This document shows, piece after piece, positions 1-5,364 of a stretch of DNA of 25,502 nt; the first letter of the stretch is position 1; every line of letters starts with the position of its first letter. Source of the stretch: a virus. Lineage: Duplodnaviria; Heunggongvirae; Uroviricota; Caudoviricetes. The stretch lies in IMG/VR virus record IMGVR_UViG_2734482545_000002; one strand, given 5' to 3'. The translations under genes and the position numbers were made by a program. Below the pieces are notes generated by a model that was not told the origin of the DNA, did no database searches, and saw only the letters and a list, made by a program, of their open reading frames with translations.

Positions 1-28
1 AGGGACAGCTGATAGAAACAGAAGCCAC
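1..28 (-). CDS. insA: IS1 InsA, N-terminal fragment (GTG start at 28..26, continues off window)
   Basis: Minus-strand reading from 28: GTG GCT TCT GTT TCT ATC AGC TGT CCC = VASVSISCP, matching the InsA N-terminus as I recall it. Truncated by the window edge, not necessarily in the genome. Confidence 0.6.
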
Positions 29-83
29 TGGAGCACCTCAAAAACACCATCATACACTAAATCAGTAAGTTGGCAGCATCACC
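1..83 (-). mobile_element. IS1: IS1 insertion sequence, terminal 83 bp (left inverted-repeat end); rest of element lies beyond the window's left edge
   Basis: Reverse complement of 1-83 reads GGTGATGCTGCCAACTTACTGATTTAGTGTATGATGGTGTTTTTGAGGTGCTCCAGTGGCTTCTGTTTCTATCAGCTGTCCCT, which I recognise as the IS1 left end including the terminal inverted repeat (window 61-83) and the start of insA. Recognition is from memory. Confidence 0.85.
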
Positions 84-832
84 AGCCTTCTTGAGGCTAC
101 CACCTGTTTTCAGGTGTCATTCAGACGTGATTTGCCCCAGATTGGGAAAGCACGCTTTTTTCTCAGCTATCGTCCTCTTATTTTGCCGTTACATTTCTTT
201 TTGCATTCTAATGATTAATTTACAATAATAATATCGGTAATTATTGAGTAATAATAAATTAATTATTGCAAATGTAATTTAATTCCATCTTCGCGTTATA
301 TTCCAATCTTTAATCTCCGCATGGAACAAGTTGCATGCGTGACTATATTAAGACGACTTATAACCACCAAAACATTTGCTTTGCAAGCAAAAACAGTGAC
401 CATTGACTCTAAGAAAATTCCGATCTATTGTTAGGGTCATCAAAGTTACTTAACAGTATTCCGAAATGAAAATACAAAGCAAGCTAATTGTCTTATTAAA
501 CATTATTATTGCATTTATATTATTTGAGCTTTTAGCTCAAAAATTTGGTTTGAGTACATTATTTTAAAGCAAGATAAACAATATCGGGCACTCTAGTTTT
601 TATAATTAACAATTAAACGTCCATAAAATGTTATTTACTTTTCTTCGCTATTGTCATATCTTAATATAGTGGCTTACGCCACTCTACTTTCATCACATTT
701 TGTACGTTTATGTACTCGCCATGAAGCTCTTTCATGGCGATTTTTTATTCTTAATCCAAGAACATACTCCCTACCTATAGCAAAATCACTTTTTTAACAA
801 AAGAATAACGTATTTAGGTAATCATTACGAAT
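84..832. other. AT-rich non-lambda spacer/accessory segment between the IS1 end and tfa; no ORF of 60 aa or more on either strand
   Basis: Visibly AT-rich (roughly 30% G+C by eye, not computed) against the GC-rich structural genes. Does not match the sequence I recall downstream of lambda tfa. The supplied ORF track has no ORFs here. Confidence 0.6.
717..747 (+). terminator. Rho-independent terminator candidate, plus-strand orientation
   Basis: cgccatgaa (717-725) / ttcatggcg (731-739) form a 9-bp GC-containing stem with loop gctct, followed by a tttttt tract at 741-746. On the minus strand the hairpin is preceded, not followed, by the U tract, so the orientation is plus. Confidence 0.5.
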
Positions 833-1414
833 TTACCCTATAGGTGCTACTGGCCATTCAATATCCGGTGCAGTTGATGTATCAACACGGTTCAGCAACA
901 CCCGATACTTTTTCCAAGCTTCCAGCAACAAGGTTTCTTTCTCCGTTGCGATCTCCAGATCCACAGCATCCTGAAGCGGCGCTATATGCTCACTGGCTAC
1001 CTGCATCAGGCTGTTTTTTGTTTCTTCCGCCTCCCGGATCCGGAACAGTTTTTCTGCTTCCGTATCCTTCACCCAGGCTGTGCCGTTCCACTTCTGAAAC
1101 TCCCCTTCCGGGGATAACCAGGTGACATTTTCCGGTAATGAGCCGAGTTCAGAAATAAATAACGCGTCGCCGGAAGCCACGTCATAAACCGTTTTACCCC
1201 GATGATCTTCAACGAGATGCCACGATGACTCATCACTGTTGAAAACAGCCACGAAACCAGCCGGAATATCTGGCGGTGCAATATCGGTACTGTTTGCAGG
1301 CAGACCTGTATGAGGCGGAATATATGCGTCACCTTCACCAATAAATTCATTAGTTCCGGCCAGCAGGTTATAAATTTTTATGGTCCGTGCTTGTTCACTC
1401 ATTCTGAATGCCAT
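833..1414 (-). CDS. tfa: Tail fiber assembly protein (lambda Tfa homologue), 193 aa
   Basis: [27 protein letters not shown]... is near-identical to lambda Tfa as I recall it, except the last few C-terminal residues. ATG at 1414..1412 overlaps the stf stop (ATAATG arrangement as in lambda). Confidence 0.93.
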
Positions 1415-4400
1415 TATGCGAGCCTCACAATATAGTTAAATGCGATGTTTTTGACGGTGTTTTCCGCGTTACCAGCAGCGTTAACGGTGATGGTGTGTCC
1501 ATGTGAACCAATCGCAACAGAGTGCGTATGAGCACCAATACCGACAGTATGCGCGTGTGCACCCGCAGATGCTGCTGTGCCGGACAGTGAGTGTGTATGG
1601 TTTCCTTCTGAAGATGATTTACCTACCCATTGGGAGGTGCCACTGGTTAATGAGCCACTGATACCAACCTGATTAGTCCCGCTAACTTGAGTACTCCCTG
1701 CCGGAAACATTCCAGTAGGTTGACTCCCGCTATTCGTTCTGGGCCCAGTCTGACTATGTTGGTGGGCCCCAGCTGAACTTGTAGAGCCGCTCAGACTGTG
1801 CGTATGCGCCCCGGTGTTATTCGTGGATTTAGTGCCGTAATCAAACGACGATGTGGTTTTCGTCCCCAAATCCGTACTGGATGCGCTGGCGCTGTGGGTG
1901 TGCGATTTAATGCCATCCTGTTCCTGAGACAATACGGCACGACCACTGGCGGGCTTGCCCTTAATCGTCCAGCCACGCATATCAGGGATCACGCCTGACG
2001 GATAAGCGGCTGCAAGTTTCGGGTAAGCAGATTTGTCAAAAGTCTGCCCCTGCATCAGGGCATAACCAGACGGAACGGTATCTGATGGCCACGGGATTGG
2101 TGCACCGACTGGATAAAACTCTGCAGGAGGATGAGCCGAGGTGTAAAGCTGCGCCCACGGCGACCAGTTTGCGTCGGTCGTATCCCGTCGTGAACGAATA
2201 AATGCCGGAGCATGAGCACCGCTTGTACCACTCCAGCCGATGAGTAACTCACCTTCGCCAACGGCTGTCATCCCTTTCAGGTGAATGATATTTCCATACG
2301 CTGTTGGATATCCGTTGTTATACACCTCGTATAACTCAAGACCTGCTGCCCCCTGCGTATTGTCTGTCAGCGCGGCTACCCGACCTTTTGAAGCCAGATT
2401 AACTGATGATACTGCTGTTCCACCTGACGGTAGCGCCCCGATCTCTGATGCCGTTGGCTTATTTCTGGAGTTATAGTCCCTTCGCCAGCCAGGTGAATAA
2501 TCTGTTCCGTGATTAATATAGGTAAACTGGGCGTTGGTTGTTCCGCCACCGCTGGATGTGGTCGGAGTGGTAATGCGGATCGTCATCGCTGACTTTATCC
2601 CCATTACTTCAATGACAGCTCCGGCGAGATGAATATTACCGCAGCCAGTATCAGTAATGATTTTATTATTGCCATAAGACCAGGAACCCTTGCACATCCA
2701 GTATGGATGGTTAAATGCTCCCTGAGAATCCAGCCACTCGATAAACTGTGCAGTCGTCCAGTTTCCTGTTGTTGTGCTTACTGACCCACCGAAGGCACGG
2801 CAGGCACCAATATTTTTCGTAAAGGTGTCTTTGCCAGGGATATCCGCACCGTTCTGATCTTTCTGCAGACGTTTCTCAGCATTGTCATTGGCTGCTTTTA
2901 CTGCCTTTGGCGTTGCCGCCAGCGTTTCAGACGTGCTGTTGGTCGCGCTGCTTAGCTGGATTATCCCTTTCTGTGCTGTCGTTGCATCCTGTGCGGTGTA
3001 TTTCCCGTTAGCCAGGTCATACGCGGCCTTAACGGCTTTTGGTGTTGCCGCCAGTGACTCGGAAGTGCTGTTAGTCGCACTACTGAGCTGTACTATCCCC
3101 TTTTTCGTCGTGCTCGCATCCTCAAGCGCCACGGCGGATGCAATATCCTCTGCCCGTTTTGCCGCTGTCTCAGCGCGCGTTGCTGCAGATTCCGCCGTAC
3201 TTTTGCTCTGAGCTGCTGCCGTCGCACTACCAGCAGCCTCTGTCGCCTTCGTGGATGCCGTCGTGGCGCTGCCCTTCGCTGCTGACGCCTGTCTGGTCGC
3301 CTCATCTTTTGAAGCAGACGCCGATGATGCCGATGACGCCNNNNNNNNNNNNNNNNNNNNNNNNNNNNNNNNNNNNNNNNNNNNNNNNNNNNNNNNNNNN
3401 NNNNNNNNNNNNNNNNNNNNNNNNNNNNNNNNNNNNNNNNNNNNNNNNNNNNNNNNNNNNNNNNNNNNNNNNNNNNNNNNNNNNNNNNNNNNNNNNNNNN
3501 NNNNNNNNNNNNNNNNNNNNNNNNNNNNNNNNNNNNNNNNNNNNNNNNNNNNNNNNNNNNNNNNNNNNNNNNNNNNNNNNNNNNNNNNNNCTGTTTTTGA
3601 GCCTGCCGCAGCTGAGGCACTCTGTCCCGCTGCCGTTTCAGAAGACCTGGCGTTCGTCTCGGACGTTTTGGCCGCCTTCGCAGAATTTGCAGCCGCCGTC
3701 GCCGAGGAAGCTGCGCTACTGGCGCTTGATGATGCGTTCGTTTCTGATGATTTTGCCGCCTCTTTTGAAGCCGACGCATCCCGGGCTGAGGTGGCAGCTT
3801 CTGACGCTTTCGTGGTCGCGGTGGATGCAGAAGTGGCTGCTGATTGTTGTGACGCTGCCGCATTCGTTTCTAACGTTTTCGCCGCACCGGCACTGGTAGC
3901 CGCCGCGCTTTTTGAGGACTCTGCAGCGGCAGCACTTTTTGAGGCTTCAGTGGCCTTTGTTGATGCCGTTCCTGCGCTGGAAGACGCTGACTGAGCCGAC
4001 GAAGCGGCCTGTCCGGCTGACGTGCTGGCTGCACGTGCTGAATCTGCAGCATCAGTCGCATGGGTTGCCGCCTCACGGGCTGATGTGCTGGCATCGCTGG
4101 CTGATTTCTTCGCGGCTGCCGTGTTCTGTGCCACCGCGGACGCGTTACGCGCCACCTCTTCCACCATCAGCTCAAAACGGCGCAGTGCCTCCGGACGGGC
4201 ATCATCCTCCGTCATGGCACCGAGAAAATCATTCAGCGTACCGGGTCGGGAATCTTCATACACGGTGATGGTCCCGGCATGTGACGGCGGGAATCCTTCC
4301 ACCAACAGAATAACGCTGTACTGACCGTACTCAACGTCCATGCTGTAACGCCCGGCTTCATCCGGATTTTCTGAGGCCAGCGTGTTCACCACCACCGTGG

Positions 4401-4556: not shown

Positions 4557-5364
4557 CAGAATTTATAACCGACACCCACGATGAAACCGTCAGTGCGCCA
4601 GAGACGTGTTGCTGTGGCGACCGTCATCACTTCNNNNNNNNNNNNNNNNNNNNNNNNNNNNNNNNNNNNNNNNNNNNNNNNNNNNNNNNNNNNNNNNNNN
4701 NNNNNNNNNNNNNNNNNNNNNNNNNNNNNNNNNNNNNNNNNNNNNNNNNNNNNNNNNNNNNNNNNNNNNNNNNNNNNNNNNNNNNNNNNNNNNNNNNNNN
4801 NNNNNNNNNNNNNNNNNNNNNNGAGCCTTCATAAGCAATATCAATGGCCACGGATTCGGTCGGGTTAAACTGCACGCCAGCTCCCCACGCCAGAGACGTG
4901 TTGCTGTGGCGACCGTCATCACTTCCGGTCAGCACGTCGTGCGTTTTCCCCTTGTTGTCAGTTACGCGGAGATAATCCCCGGAGAAAGTCGACACACGGC
5001 TGTAAGCCACACCCGCCATCGCATACGCGCTGAACCATTCATTCACGCGCACAGACGGCCCCGCCATCACGCTGAACCAGCGGTTACGCACGGAATCTTC
5101 ATGCCAGCGGGTATCGCTGTAACGGGTCAGCTGGCGATTCTTGTCTCCTGCATAGCTGAATGACGTCACCAGCCCCAGCGTATCCGTAAACTCATAACGG
5201 TATTTCACGTTAATCCCGTTCAGATCATCACTGCCGGGAACGTTGGTCCGGGCATGAAGATACCCCGCGCTCAGCGTGGACTGATGTTCAGACGCCCATG
5301 CAGGCGCACCGGATACGGCCAGGCAAATGGCTGCGGACAAAATGGCTGCACAAACTTTACGCAT
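4557..5364 (-). CDS. lom: Outer-membrane protein Lom (Ail/Lom family beta-barrel), interrupted by a 189-nt N run
   Basis: N-terminus MRKVCAAILSAAICLAVSGAPAWASEHQSTLSAGYLHARTN... and C-terminal TDGFIVGVGYKF-stop (4592..4557) match lambda Lom. The span is ~187 nt longer than lambda lom, about the size of the N run. Confidence 0.9.
4634..4822. other. Run of 189 N inside lom, flanked by a duplicated ~38-bp block
   Basis: cgccagagacgtgttgctgtggcgaccgtcatcacttc occurs at 4596-4633 (immediately left of the N run) and again at 4887-4924. Confidence 0.95.

What the first reader, a model, noticed from the sequence alone, without database searches (positions are those of the whole stretch)
84..832. AT-rich non-lambda island with a plus-strand transcription unit signature but no sizeable ORF
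This ~750 bp is strongly AT-rich against the GC-rich morphogenesis genes and does not match what I recall downstream of lambda tfa. It contains a well-formed intrinsic terminator oriented on the plus strand (717-747), convergent with tfa, so something is probably transcribed left to right here. Yet only tiny ORFs are present (for example 321-434 at 37 aa, 466-567 at 33 aa). Two frames are open from the IS1 junction (84 to ~224/231), so this could also be the 3' remnant of a gene cut by IS1. Candidates are a small-protein or sRNA moron, or a decayed remnant of one.
Basis: seen in the sequence. Interest (0 to 1): 0.6.

Follow-up and report, generated by a model that had tools for sequence, protein, structure and literature searches.

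The report
Unannotated prophage YncL-like small protein gene
The AT-rich stretch after the phage tail-fibre assembly gene holds a small, conserved, never-annotated gene unit for a 33-residue membrane peptide related to the E. coli stress protein YncL, carried by prophages in about 15% of complete E. coli genomes; it is a new example of a known kind of phage "extra" gene (a moron), not a new kind of system.

Summary
Window 84-832 is 27-34% GC, starts at an IS1 end (1-83) and carries a strong plus-strand intrinsic terminator (716-747).

The region is two things.
- **84-254** is non-coding junction DNA. In IS1-free relatives it lies inside a 1.5-kb spacer leading to a YdeO-like AraC regulator gene. 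No gene was cut by IS1.
- **255-832** is a conserved 578-bp module. It sits directly after the tfa stop codon in 827 of 5426 complete E. coli genomes, in prophages at several integration sites, and is never annotated.

The core of the module is ORF 466-567, encoding the 33-aa peptide MKIQSKLIVLLNIIIAFILFELLAQKFGLSTLF.
- It is homologous to YncL: NCBIfam E 1.3e-5, BLASTP 2e-7, and 0 of 20000 shuffles reach the observed score.
- It is under purifying selection (dN/dS 0.09 against a 78%-identical lineage).
- It was intact in 79 of 85 loci.

The last 90 nt of the 3' UTR (hairpin, AU-rich linker, terminator) are the best-conserved part and could be an RNA element.

Weaknesses: there is no Shine-Dalgarno sequence, the promoter is a consensus-level match only, and there are no expression data.

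Verdict: a convergent small-protein moron, a new member of a known kind, of moderate interest.

The parts
1..83 (-). Terminal 83 bp of IS1 (inverted). The window starts inside the element.
   Evidence: 100% identical to IS1 ends in more than 5000 plasmid records, annotated IS1 family transposase.
84..168 (.). Right-hand 85 bp of a 215-bp junction block shared by many prophages. IS1 split this block.
   Evidence: These 85 bp match at 93-100% in several hundred further E. coli genomes in unrelated prophage contexts. The full block, L004 4873-5085, equals L008 2872-3086 at 96.7% and begins at a tRNA-Ser-like fragment.
169..254 (.). Very AT-rich spacer specific to the prophage variant that carries a YdeO-like AraC regulator gene further left.
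   Evidence: Present only in the 280 genomes and 4 phages with full-length matches. In these it belongs to a 1.5-kb gene-free gap between tfa and the regulator gene.
255..832 (+). Conserved 578-bp tfa-linked module (the moron).
   Evidence: About 1000 further genomes match only query positions 172-749, always abutting the tfa stop, in prophages at ydfJ, icd/sitABCD and bio/ybhB. In 85 of 87 fetched loci a convergent tfa ends 80-139 nt after the 3' element.
313..345 (.). Conserved island of unknown role upstream of the ORF.
   Evidence: 90-96% identity to the lineage that is 78% identical overall. No convincing promoter or conserved hairpin was found.
403..431 (+). Candidate sigma-70/sigma-S-type promoter: TTGACT, 17 nt, TATTGT, with C just upstream of the -10 hexamer.
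   Evidence: A 9/12 consensus match. The -35 hexamer is conserved in 4 of 5 lineages, and the -10 keeps its A2 and T6. Promoter-like sites as a class are not enriched here (6 found, 4.8 +/- 2.3 expected).
466..567 (+). yncL-like ORF, 33 codons plus TAA: MKIQSKLIVLLNIIIAFILFELLAQKFGLSTLF.
   Evidence: NCBIfam NF000537 YncL, E 1.3e-5, residues 1-28 on profile 1-28/30. BLASTP against K-12 YncL gives 11/28 identical, E 2e-7. The alignment score of 60 compares with 20 +/- 4 in shuffles, reached by 0 of 20000. dN/dS is 0.09, and variable sites by codon position are 8/2/13. The ORF is intact in 79 of 85 loci.
668..683 (+). Conserved hairpin GUGGC-UUAC-GCCAC region in the 3' UTR.
   Evidence: -8.9 kcal/mol. 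The only stem change is G-C to G-U; the other change is in the loop.
684..715 (+). Highly conserved AU-rich linker, a possible seed or Hfq-binding region.
   Evidence: Only 4 variable sites in 675-734 across 37 distinct module sequences, the lowest density in the module. Identity to the 78% lineage is 93-96%, while both flanks fall to 50-66%.
716..747 (+). Intrinsic terminator: 11-bp stem at 716-740, then the U tract.
   Evidence: the 96-nt element folds at -27.1 kcal/mol, z -6.45; -15.2 kcal/mol. The stem is unchanged in all but one of the related loci examined, and the tail varies among T6, T5 and TTTCTT.
833..1414 (-). Tail fibre assembly gene tfa, convergent with the module.
   Evidence: ORF of 193 aa. 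The same gene is annotated as tail fiber assembly protein in relatives. Caudo_TAP was found on a fragment in L093.

Best explanation
Window 255-832 is a moron: a self-contained plus-strand gene unit that travels with the stf-tfa tail-fibre cassette of lambdoid prophages and points against the late operon. It encodes a 33-residue single-helix inner-membrane peptide that is a diverged paralogue of the E. coli stress protein YncL.

Inferred mode of action:
- In the lysogen, when the late operon is silent, a transcript of roughly 310 nt starts near 438 (candidate promoter 403-431) and ends at the terminator 716-747.
- The Shine-Dalgarno-less, unstructured AU-rich leader allows low-level translation from ATG 466.
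- The peptide inserts into the inner membrane. By analogy with YncL, it lowers membrane potential and pushes the cell towards a stress or low-metabolism state, which may benefit the lysogen.
- During lytic growth, Q-antiterminated late transcription runs through the unit in antisense and should shut it off.
- The plus-strand terminator also keeps the unit, and neighbouring inward-reading genes such as sitABCD, from making antisense RNA into tfa.

Shown: conservation, linkage to tfa, YncL homology, purifying selection, and the terminator structure. Inferred: the transcription start, translation, membrane effect, benefit, and antisense shut-off.

Window 84-254 is not part of the unit. It is non-coding junction DNA of a neighbouring regulator moron, truncated by IS1.
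For: - **Distribution and linkage:** the module is in 827 of 5426 complete E. coli genomes (933-940 places), on chromosomes only. It directly follows tfa in prophages at three different integration sites and in 85 of 87 fetched loci. It is absent from tfa-less relatives such as the CFT073 icd prophage.
- **Coding evidence:** the NCBIfam YncL profile matches at E 1.3e-5 and 3.7e-5 for two peptide variants, collinear from Met1. BLASTP to K-12 YncL gives E 2e-7. None of 20000 composition-preserving shuffles reaches the alignment score. Against the 78%-identical lineage there are 11 synonymous and 7 non-synonymous differences, giving dN/dS 0.09 with the same stop codon. Variable sites by codon position are 8/2/13. 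Only 28% of simulated random substitution sets keep the frame open. The ORF is intact in 79 of 85 loci.
- **Membrane character:** GRAVY is 1.5, and the best 19-residue window (2.54) starts at residue 7, the same position as in YncL.
- **Transcription unit:** the terminator is strong and conserved. The -35 of the candidate promoter is conserved. The start region is unpaired in the centroid fold.
- **What YncL does:** its production causes membrane depolarisation and nucleoid condensation (PMC12542507). It is sigma-S dependent in Salmonella, where its transcript was first catalogued as the sRNA STnc1110 (PMC5437024). It is cleaved by RseP in vivo (PMC10470546).
Against: - No Shine-Dalgarno sequence: best anti-SD pairing is +0.1 kcal/mol, against -7.2 for K-12 yncL.
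- The promoter is only a 9/12 consensus match, in a region where such matches are at the chance level. One lineage has TTAACT in the -35 hexamer.
- The NCBIfam score (25 bits) is below the curated cutoff of 35.
- A single-sequence phmmer search of 1.8 billion representatives did not reach YncL at E <= 0.001.
- Diversity is small: five lineages, all from E. coli. The dN/dS estimate rests mainly on one deep comparison of 18 differences.
- The 3' UTR element is more conserved than the ORF, so part of the constraint may be on RNA or DNA rather than on the peptide.
- No expression or proteomic data were available.
Confidence: 0.65

Rival explanations
1. The functional product is an RNA, not a peptide. 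On this reading the conserved last 90 nt (hairpin 668-683, AU-rich linker, terminator) form a regulatory sRNA, made from its own promoter or cut from the longer transcript, and the 33-codon frame is incidental or secondary.
For: - 675-734 has the lowest density of variable sites in the module: 4 in 60 nt, against 6-9 per 30 nt in the ORF.
- It is 93-96% identical in the lineage that is 78% identical overall, and is flanked by stretches at 50-66%.
- The 96-nt element folds at -27.1 kcal/mol, z -6.45.
- Its architecture (5' hairpin, single-stranded AU-rich stretch, terminator with U tail) resembles Hfq-dependent sRNAs; that resemblance rests on my own knowledge.
- Changes avoid breaking the stems.
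- The Salmonella yncL transcript itself was first listed as an sRNA (PMC5437024).
Against: - The ORF shows protein-level signals that an RNA-only model does not explain: YncL homology and dN/dS 0.09.
- No Rfam family matches at E <= 1.
- There are no compensatory base changes.
- No convincing internal promoter was found (inspection).
- The linker is no more complementary to its own start region or to K-12 yncL mRNA than shuffles are.
- Lineage D is a recombinant with its crossover at this element, so homogenisation by recombination could also explain the conservation.
Confidence: 0.1
2. The ORF is the toxin of a type I toxin-antitoxin-like addiction or abortive-infection module. A depolarising peptide would be kept in check by an antisense RNA, either a dedicated sRNA or read-through from the late operon.
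For: - The peptide is small and hydrophobic.
- The family member YncL depolarises the membrane and reduces viability when produced early (PMC12542507).
- Translation signals are weak, with no Shine-Dalgarno sequence, and the UTRs are conserved, as in many type I toxin mRNAs; this comparison rests on my own knowledge.
- The location is on a mobile element, in up to 4 copies per genome.
Against: - No conserved minus-strand promoter or antisense terminator was found. The only minus-strand promoter-like site over the unit (657 to 628) is not conserved in lineage E.
- No type I toxin family of NCBIfam or Pfam matches; the only hit is YncL.
- PADLOC gives no hit.
- YncL itself is not described as a toxin with an antitoxin in the papers read (PMC12542507, PMC10470546).
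Confidence: 0.12
3. The segment has no function of its own. It would be spacer or linker DNA that hitch-hikes with the frequently exchanged stf-tfa cassette, and its conservation would reflect recent spread and recombination rather than selection.
For: - Four of the five lineages are 91-99% identical.
- The segment is always tied to tfa.
- In lineages B and E the module lies between a complete tfa and the 3' remnant of another tfa, which is evidence of cassette replacement.
- Recombinant lineage D exists.
- A truncated copy (L010) and a frameshifted copy (P0003) exist.
Against: - The 78% lineage shows strongly uneven conservation: the ORF is kept at the protein level, and the 3' element is at 94% between stretches at 50-60%.
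- The codon-position pattern of variation is 8/2/13.
- Homology to a known protein cannot arise by hitch-hiking.
Confidence: 0.1
4. For 84-231 only: the open frames are the 3' end of a gene interrupted by IS1.
For: Two frames are open from the junction (70-228 and 114-218). The phage ev099 record annotates a hypothetical ORF of about 55 aa across the equivalent position.
Against: - In IS1-free relatives the frames extend only to 55 and 45 aa.
- RefSeq annotates nothing there in any listed genome.
- The first 85 bp belong to a 215-bp non-coding junction block that recurs in other prophage contexts, next to a tRNA-like fragment.
- No family hit for the 52-aa frame.
Confidence: 0.03

Closest known systems
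YncL (E. coli K-12 b4598, 31 aa; NCBIfam NF000537 'stress response membrane protein YncL')
   Same: - Nearly the same length (33 vs 31 aa), and the alignment is collinear from Met1.
- 11 of 28 residues are identical and 18 of 28 similar, including N12, L19-F20 and the [KR]-F-G motif at 26-28.
- A single hydrophobic helix starts at residue 7 in both.
   Different: - It is carried by prophages directly after tfa, not at the chromosomal patD-ortT locus.
- It has no Shine-Dalgarno sequence, whereas yncL has AAGGTGG.
- The UTRs and terminator are unrelated.
- It scores below the equivalog cutoff (25 vs 35 bits; YncL itself scores 68.6).
Lambda-type morons in the late region (lom, bor; concept reviewed in PMC3594210)
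   Same: Extra DNA of deviant composition placed at a gene boundary of the late operon, with its own terminator and a candidate promoter. It is present in some relatives and absent from others, and is expected to be expressed from the prophage.
   Different: The product is a 33-aa peptide rather than an outer-membrane protein or lipoprotein. The unit is convergent with the late operon and moves together with the tail-fibre cassette.
Type I toxins (Hok, Ldr, TisB, ZorO and similar)
   Same: Small hydrophobic membrane peptide. Its family member YncL depolarises the membrane on production (PMC12542507). Translation signals are weak.
   Different: No antitoxin sRNA was detectable and there is no match to any type I toxin family.
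Salmonella STnc1110 (the yncL transcript first listed as an sRNA) and 3'UTR-derived sRNAs in general
   Same: A short transcript carrying a tiny ORF (PMC5437024). The terminator-proximal 3' part is better conserved than the rest of the UTR.
   Different: No sequence relation outside the ORF, no Rfam hit, no covariation, and no predicted target.

Membership tests
YncL family (NCBIfam NF000537, equivalog) | Score at or above the curated whole-protein cutoff (35 bits) | tested here: not met
   25.0 bits for the window peptide and 23.5 bits for the lineage-E peptide. K-12 YncL scores 68.6. It is therefore not an equivalog of YncL.
YncL family (homology in the broad sense) | Statistically significant, collinear similarity over the whole peptide | tested here: met
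   HMM E 1.3e-5, residues 1-28 on profile 1-28/30. BLASTP E 2e-7. Score 60 against 20 +/- 4 in shuffles, reached by 0 of 20000. Caveat: single-sequence phmmer on 1.8 billion proteins did not list YncL at E <= 0.001.
YncL family | About 30 aa with one transmembrane helix | tested here: met
   33 aa. The best 19-residue Kyte-Doolittle window is 2.54, starting at residue 7, against 2.15 at residue 7 in YncL.
YncL family | Membrane depolarisation and nucleoid condensation on production; stress-induced expression (PMC12542507, PMC5437024) | not testable with these tools
   Needs expression and DiBAC4(3) or microscopy assays.
Moron | Composition different from the flanking phage genes | tested here: met
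   GC 0.27-0.34 against 0.45-0.56.
Moron | Own terminator | tested here: met
   Stem 716-740 plus T6, -15.2 kcal/mol; the stem is unchanged in all but one of the related loci examined.
Moron | Own promoter | tested here: inconclusive
   TTGACT-17-TATTGT at 403-431 with a conserved -35. However, promoter-like matches are at the chance level in this AT-rich DNA (6 found, 4.8 +/- 2.3 expected).
Moron | Present in some and absent from other otherwise related phages | tested here: met
   Found in 827 of 5426 genomes. The CFT073 icd prophage with sitABCD lacks it. Only 4 of 50,697 phage records carry it.
Moron | Expressed from the repressed prophage | not testable with these tools
   No transcriptome data are accessible here.
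Type I toxin-antitoxin | Antisense or overlapping sRNA antitoxin gene | tested here: inconclusive
   No conserved minus-strand promoter or terminator over the unit. Absence cannot be proven from sequence alone.
Type I toxin-antitoxin | Toxin belongs to a described toxin family | tested here: not met
   NCBIfam, Pfam, PHROGs and PADLOC give only the YncL hit.
Hfq-type or 3'UTR-derived sRNA | Intrinsic terminator with U tail plus a conserved single-stranded region | tested here: met
Hfq-type or 3'UTR-derived sRNA | Structure supported by compensatory changes, or membership of a curated RNA family | tested here: not met
   There are no changes on both sides of any pair, only one G-C to G-U change. 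No Rfam match at E <= 1 apart from IS009 inside tfa.

The most novel reading that the evidence does not exclude
The module is a dual-function prophage unit that has escaped annotation in about one in seven E. coli genomes. On this reading it has two products:
- a lysogen-expressed depolarising peptide of the YncL family, acting as a phage-defence, abortive-infection or dormancy switch and shut off by antisense late transcription on induction;
- a conserved sRNA of about 85 nt, derived from the 3' UTR, that regulates host genes.
If so, YncL-type chromosomal 'stress' peptides and phage-borne membrane peptides would share one mechanism.
Probability: 0.15. Interest if true: 0.7.

Novelty: new member of a known kind. 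Interest (0 to 1): 0.45.

Why it matters
- **An unassigned protein family.** YncL is a small membrane protein whose role is still unsettled. Only recently was its production linked to membrane depolarisation and nucleoid condensation (PMC12542507).
- **A mobile paralogue gives a handle on function.** A phage-borne copy that always rides with the tail-fibre cassette suggests the family can be selected on a mobile element. It also provides a tractable system: the isolated temperate phages mEp332, PhiR70_1 and ev099 all carry it, so one can ask what such peptides do for a lysogen.
- **An annotation gap.** The ORF is missed in every RefSeq genome row inspected and in all three distinct annotated phage genomes. 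The reasons are that it is short, lacks a Shine-Dalgarno sequence, and scores just under the NCBIfam cutoff.
- **A candidate RNA element.** The strongly conserved 3' UTR element is a candidate for a new prophage sRNA.

Tried and rejected
- The search for homologous proteins and the search for related loci rejected the 33-aa query as too short.
- **tblastn false negative.** tblastn of the peptide against phages returned nothing, although four phage records contain the ORF. The low-complexity filter probably masks it, so this is not evidence of absence.
- **Wider DNA scans.** Scanning one genome per species for the conserved linker gave only two chance hits in unrelated phyla. The metagenome and viral scans returned only the same five E. 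coli lineages. No deeper divergence was found, so no covariation test with real power was possible.
- **Representatives search.** It returned only the query itself and a frameshift variant.
- **Family libraries.** Pfam, PHROGs and PADLOC gave no hit. Rfam gave only IS009 inside tfa.
- **Literature.** Searches for the peptide and DNA strings found nothing.
- **ORF 321-434 (37 aa) rejected.** Its start codon is lost in four lineages.
- **ORF 651-797 (48 aa) rejected.** It spans the terminator and is frameshifted by the T6-to-T5 variants.
- **'Gene cut by IS1' rejected**.
- **Long-range RNA pairing.** A fold-back pairing between the 5' end (436-446) and 688-698 appears in the minimum-free-energy fold, but it is not maintained in lineage E (inspection). 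The linker is no more complementary to its own start region or to K-12 yncL mRNA than shuffles are.
- **Model strain.** I looked for the module in CFT073 to point to public data; its icd/sitABCD prophage has a different tail-fibre end and lacks the module.
Full report
**1. The observation**

- Window 84-832 is 27-34% GC, against 45-56% in the adjoining tfa and stf genes.
- Positions 1-83 are an IS1 end, 100% identical to IS1 in more than 5000 plasmid records.
- The consensus scan finds a plus-strand intrinsic terminator: stem 716-740 (11 pairs, 5 G-C) followed by T6. The hairpin folds at -15.2 kcal/mol.
As a bare pattern the terminator is within chance (2 found, 0.9 +/- 1.0 expected). Its weight comes from conservation, described below.

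**2. The region is two different pieces**

Megablast against 5426 complete E. coli genomes hits 1343 of them, but only 280 carry the whole 749 bp.

- *Full-length matches.* In those 280 genomes, and in the temperate phages mEp332, PhiR70_1 and ev099, the sequence is the tfa-proximal half of a 1.5-kb gene-free gap. On the far side of the gap lies an AraC-family regulator gene on the same strand as tfa, followed by IS remnants and the lambda attachment region at bioA/ybhB. The regulator is YdeO-like (NF007407, E 1.9e-43, below cutoff).
- *Matches to 255-832 only.* About 1000 further genomes match only window 255-832, at about 96%. There the segment again abuts the tfa stop codon, but in prophages integrated elsewhere: at ydfJ, and at icd next to sitABCD. 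A 78-80% identical copy also exists.
- *Matches to 84-168 only.* Several hundred genomes match only these 85 bp, in unrelated prophage junctions. They are the right end of a 215-bp block that starts at a tRNA-Ser-like fragment (L004 4873-5085 equals L008 2872-3086). IS1 has inserted into that block.
- *No gene was cut.* IS1-free relatives have only 55-aa and 45-aa ORFs across the junction and no RefSeq gene.

So 84-254 is non-coding junction DNA of a neighbouring regulator moron. The conserved unit is 255-832.

**3. Linkage to the tail-fibre cassette**

- In 85 of 87 fetched loci that contain the 3' element, a convergent tfa ends 80-139 nt beyond it. The two exceptions are a contig end and one rearranged locus.
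- In lineages B and E the module lies between a complete tfa and the 3' remnant of another tfa in the same orientation. This is what is expected if whole stf-tfa-module cassettes replace one another by recombination within tfa.
- The CFT073 icd/sitABCD prophage has a different fibre end without tfa, and it lacks the module.

**4. The core is a YncL-like small ORF (466-567)**

The encoded peptide is MKIQSKLIVLLNIIIAFILFELLAQKFGLSTLF.

- *Family match.* The peptide matches one NCBIfam model only, YncL 'stress response membrane protein': E 1.3e-5, 25 bits, residues 1-28 on profile positions 1-28 of 30. The peptide of the divergent lineage gives E 3.7e-5.
- *Pairwise similarity.* K-12 YncL, read from the MG1655 record, is MNVSSRTVVLINFFAAVGLFTLISMRFGWFI. 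BLASTP gives 11 of 28 identical and 18 of 28 similar, without gaps from Met1, E 2e-7.
- *Composition control.* Hydrophobic peptides can match each other spuriously, so I shuffled each partner 20000 times. The observed score of 60 compares with 20 +/- 4, and no shuffle reached it.
- *Selection.* Against the 78% lineage the 99 sense nucleotides differ at 18 sites: 11 synonymous and 7 non-synonymous, the latter all conservative (V/I, I/F, F/L, E/K, S/Y). The stop codon is the same. dN/dS is 0.09.
- *Codon positions.* Across 37 distinct module sequences, variable sites fall 8/2/13 on codon positions 1/2/3.
- *Intactness.* The ORF is intact in 79 of 85 loci, with only four peptide variants. Two short contigs carry a homopolymer frameshift, and the remaining four are three copies cut by contig ends and one in which the start-codon pattern was not found.
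- *The other ORFs.* The 37-aa ORF 321-434 has ACG instead of ATG in four of five lineages. The 48-aa frame across the terminator is broken by the T6-to-T5 variants.
- *Annotation.* The yncL-like ORF is annotated in none of the RefSeq rows inspected and in none of the three phages, which annotate other ORFs or nothing. In a collection of 15 billion predicted proteins it appears as a two-member unnamed cluster.

**5. Signals around the ORF**

- *Promoter.* The best candidate is TTGACT-17-TATTGT at 403-431. Its -35 is conserved in four of five lineages, and A2 and T6 of the -10 are kept. Such matches are at the chance level in this AT-rich DNA, so this is a candidate only.
- *Ribosome binding.* There is no Shine-Dalgarno sequence: +0.1 kcal/mol against -7.2 for K-12 yncL. 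The start region is unpaired in the centroid fold.
- *3' UTR.* It is 180 nt long. Its first half is poorly conserved (50-66% in the divergent lineage). Its last 90 nt comprise hairpin 668-683, an AU-rich linker and the terminator. These 90 nt are the best-conserved part of the whole module: 93-96% identity, with 4 variable sites in 675-734. They fold far better than shuffles (z -6.45).
- *Variation in the element.* Changes there are loop changes, one G-C to G-U change, or changes in U-tract length. None is compensatory.
- *Independence.* The element never occurs apart from the module, except in one truncated copy.
- *Other tests.* It matches no Rfam family. Its linker shows no better-than-chance complementarity to its own start region or to K-12 yncL mRNA.
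- *Recombination as an alternative.* Lineage D is a recombinant whose crossover lies at this element, so recombinational homogenisation competes with selection on an RNA as the explanation for its conservation.

**6. Most likely mechanism**

- *Shown:* a conserved, tfa-linked, AT-rich unit with a YncL-family ORF under purifying selection and a conserved plus-strand terminator, convergent with the late operon.
- *Inferred:* the unit is transcribed in the lysogen from about 438 to 747 and translated at a low level. Its peptide inserts into the inner membrane.
- *By analogy with YncL:* YncL production depolarises the membrane and condenses the nucleoid (PMC12542507). Its expression needs sigma-S in Salmonella (PMC5437024), and it is cleaved by RseP in vivo (PMC10470546). 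The prophage peptide may therefore modulate membrane energetics and the stress state of the lysogen.
- *On induction:* Q-antiterminated late transcripts would cross the unit in antisense and silence it.
- I put 0.65 on the 'genuine YncL-family small-protein moron' reading. My confidence in the physiological role is much lower.

**7. Rivals**

- An RNA-only element: 0.10.
- A type I toxin-like module: 0.12. No antitoxin RNA is detectable and there is no toxin-family match.
- Functionless hitch-hiking spacer: 0.10. This is contradicted by the uneven conservation and by the homology to a known protein.
- A gene remnant cut by IS1, for 84-231 only: 0.03.

**8. Comparison and novelty**

- The peptide works like, and is homologous to, YncL. 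It fails the NCBIfam equivalog cutoff, sits on a prophage, and has unrelated UTRs. It should be called a YncL-like paralogue, not YncL.
- As a genetic unit it fits the moron concept (PMC3594210). The unusual features are its convergent orientation and its tight coupling to the tail-fibre cassette.
- I found no paper describing it: string searches gave nothing, and of the 34 papers mentioning YncL, none of the 30 listed titles, nor any passage read in four of them, describes a prophage copy.
- It is a new member of a known kind. Interest is moderate, for three reasons: the ORF is widespread and unannotated, it offers a handle on an uncharacterised protein family, and the 3' element may be a new prophage sRNA.

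Noticed in passing
window 873-1071 (-): Rfam family IS009 (an sRNA candidate from E. coli K-12) matches at 218 bits, E 7.8e-55, entirely inside the tfa coding sequence. The 'family' here is simply conserved tfa sequence.
   Followed up: no
L004 4828-4890 (relative lacking IS1; this part is missing from the window): A fragment resembling the 3' half of a tRNA-Ser gene (TGGCGGAGAGAGGGGGATTTGAACCCCC...) lies in the spacer between tfa and the YdeO-like regulator gene. ARAGORN finds no complete tRNA. It looks like an old attachment-site scar, and it marks the left edge of the 215-bp block shared with other prophage junctions.
   Followed up: partly
L004 3501-4244 (-), and the same gene in L001-L003: In IS1-free relatives the next gene after the gap is a 247-aa YdeO/GadX-like AraC regulator, about 756 bp from the point where IS1 sits in this window. 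The IS1 insertion may have separated it from upstream sequence. Whether the gene still lies beyond the window start cannot be told.
   Followed up: partly
L005 about 4900-5000; L006 4892-4991; L011 2704-2803: In lineages B and E the module is preceded by the 3' remnant of a second tfa gene in the same orientation. This points to replacement of whole tail-fibre cassettes by recombination within tfa.
   Followed up: partly
L043, L055, L081: A recombinant module lineage: the left part resembles the sitABCD-linked lineage and the right part resembles the 78% lineage, with the switch at the terminator.
   Followed up: partly
L010 3001-3195: In an O169:H41 strain the module is truncated, leaving only the 3' element and tfa next to the ydfJ remnant. 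The stf gene there is also broken by an ISVsa5 insertion.
   Followed up: no
window about 3300-3600 and about 4600-4800: Runs of N (masked or unresolved sequence) lie inside the alanine/serine-rich repeat part of the 1027-aa side tail fibre gene and just beyond it. They show as X in the translation and as near-zero GC.
   Followed up: no
window 523-541 (+): A second terminator-like hairpin (8 pairs) lies inside the yncL-like ORF. It is partly conserved, but it is followed by a poor T tract and is probably a chance match.
   Followed up: no
literature (PMC8175672): In K-12 RIL-seq data the Rac-prophage 3'UTR sRNA KilS is reported to target chromosomal yncL. This is a separate link between prophages and this small protein.
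   Followed up: no
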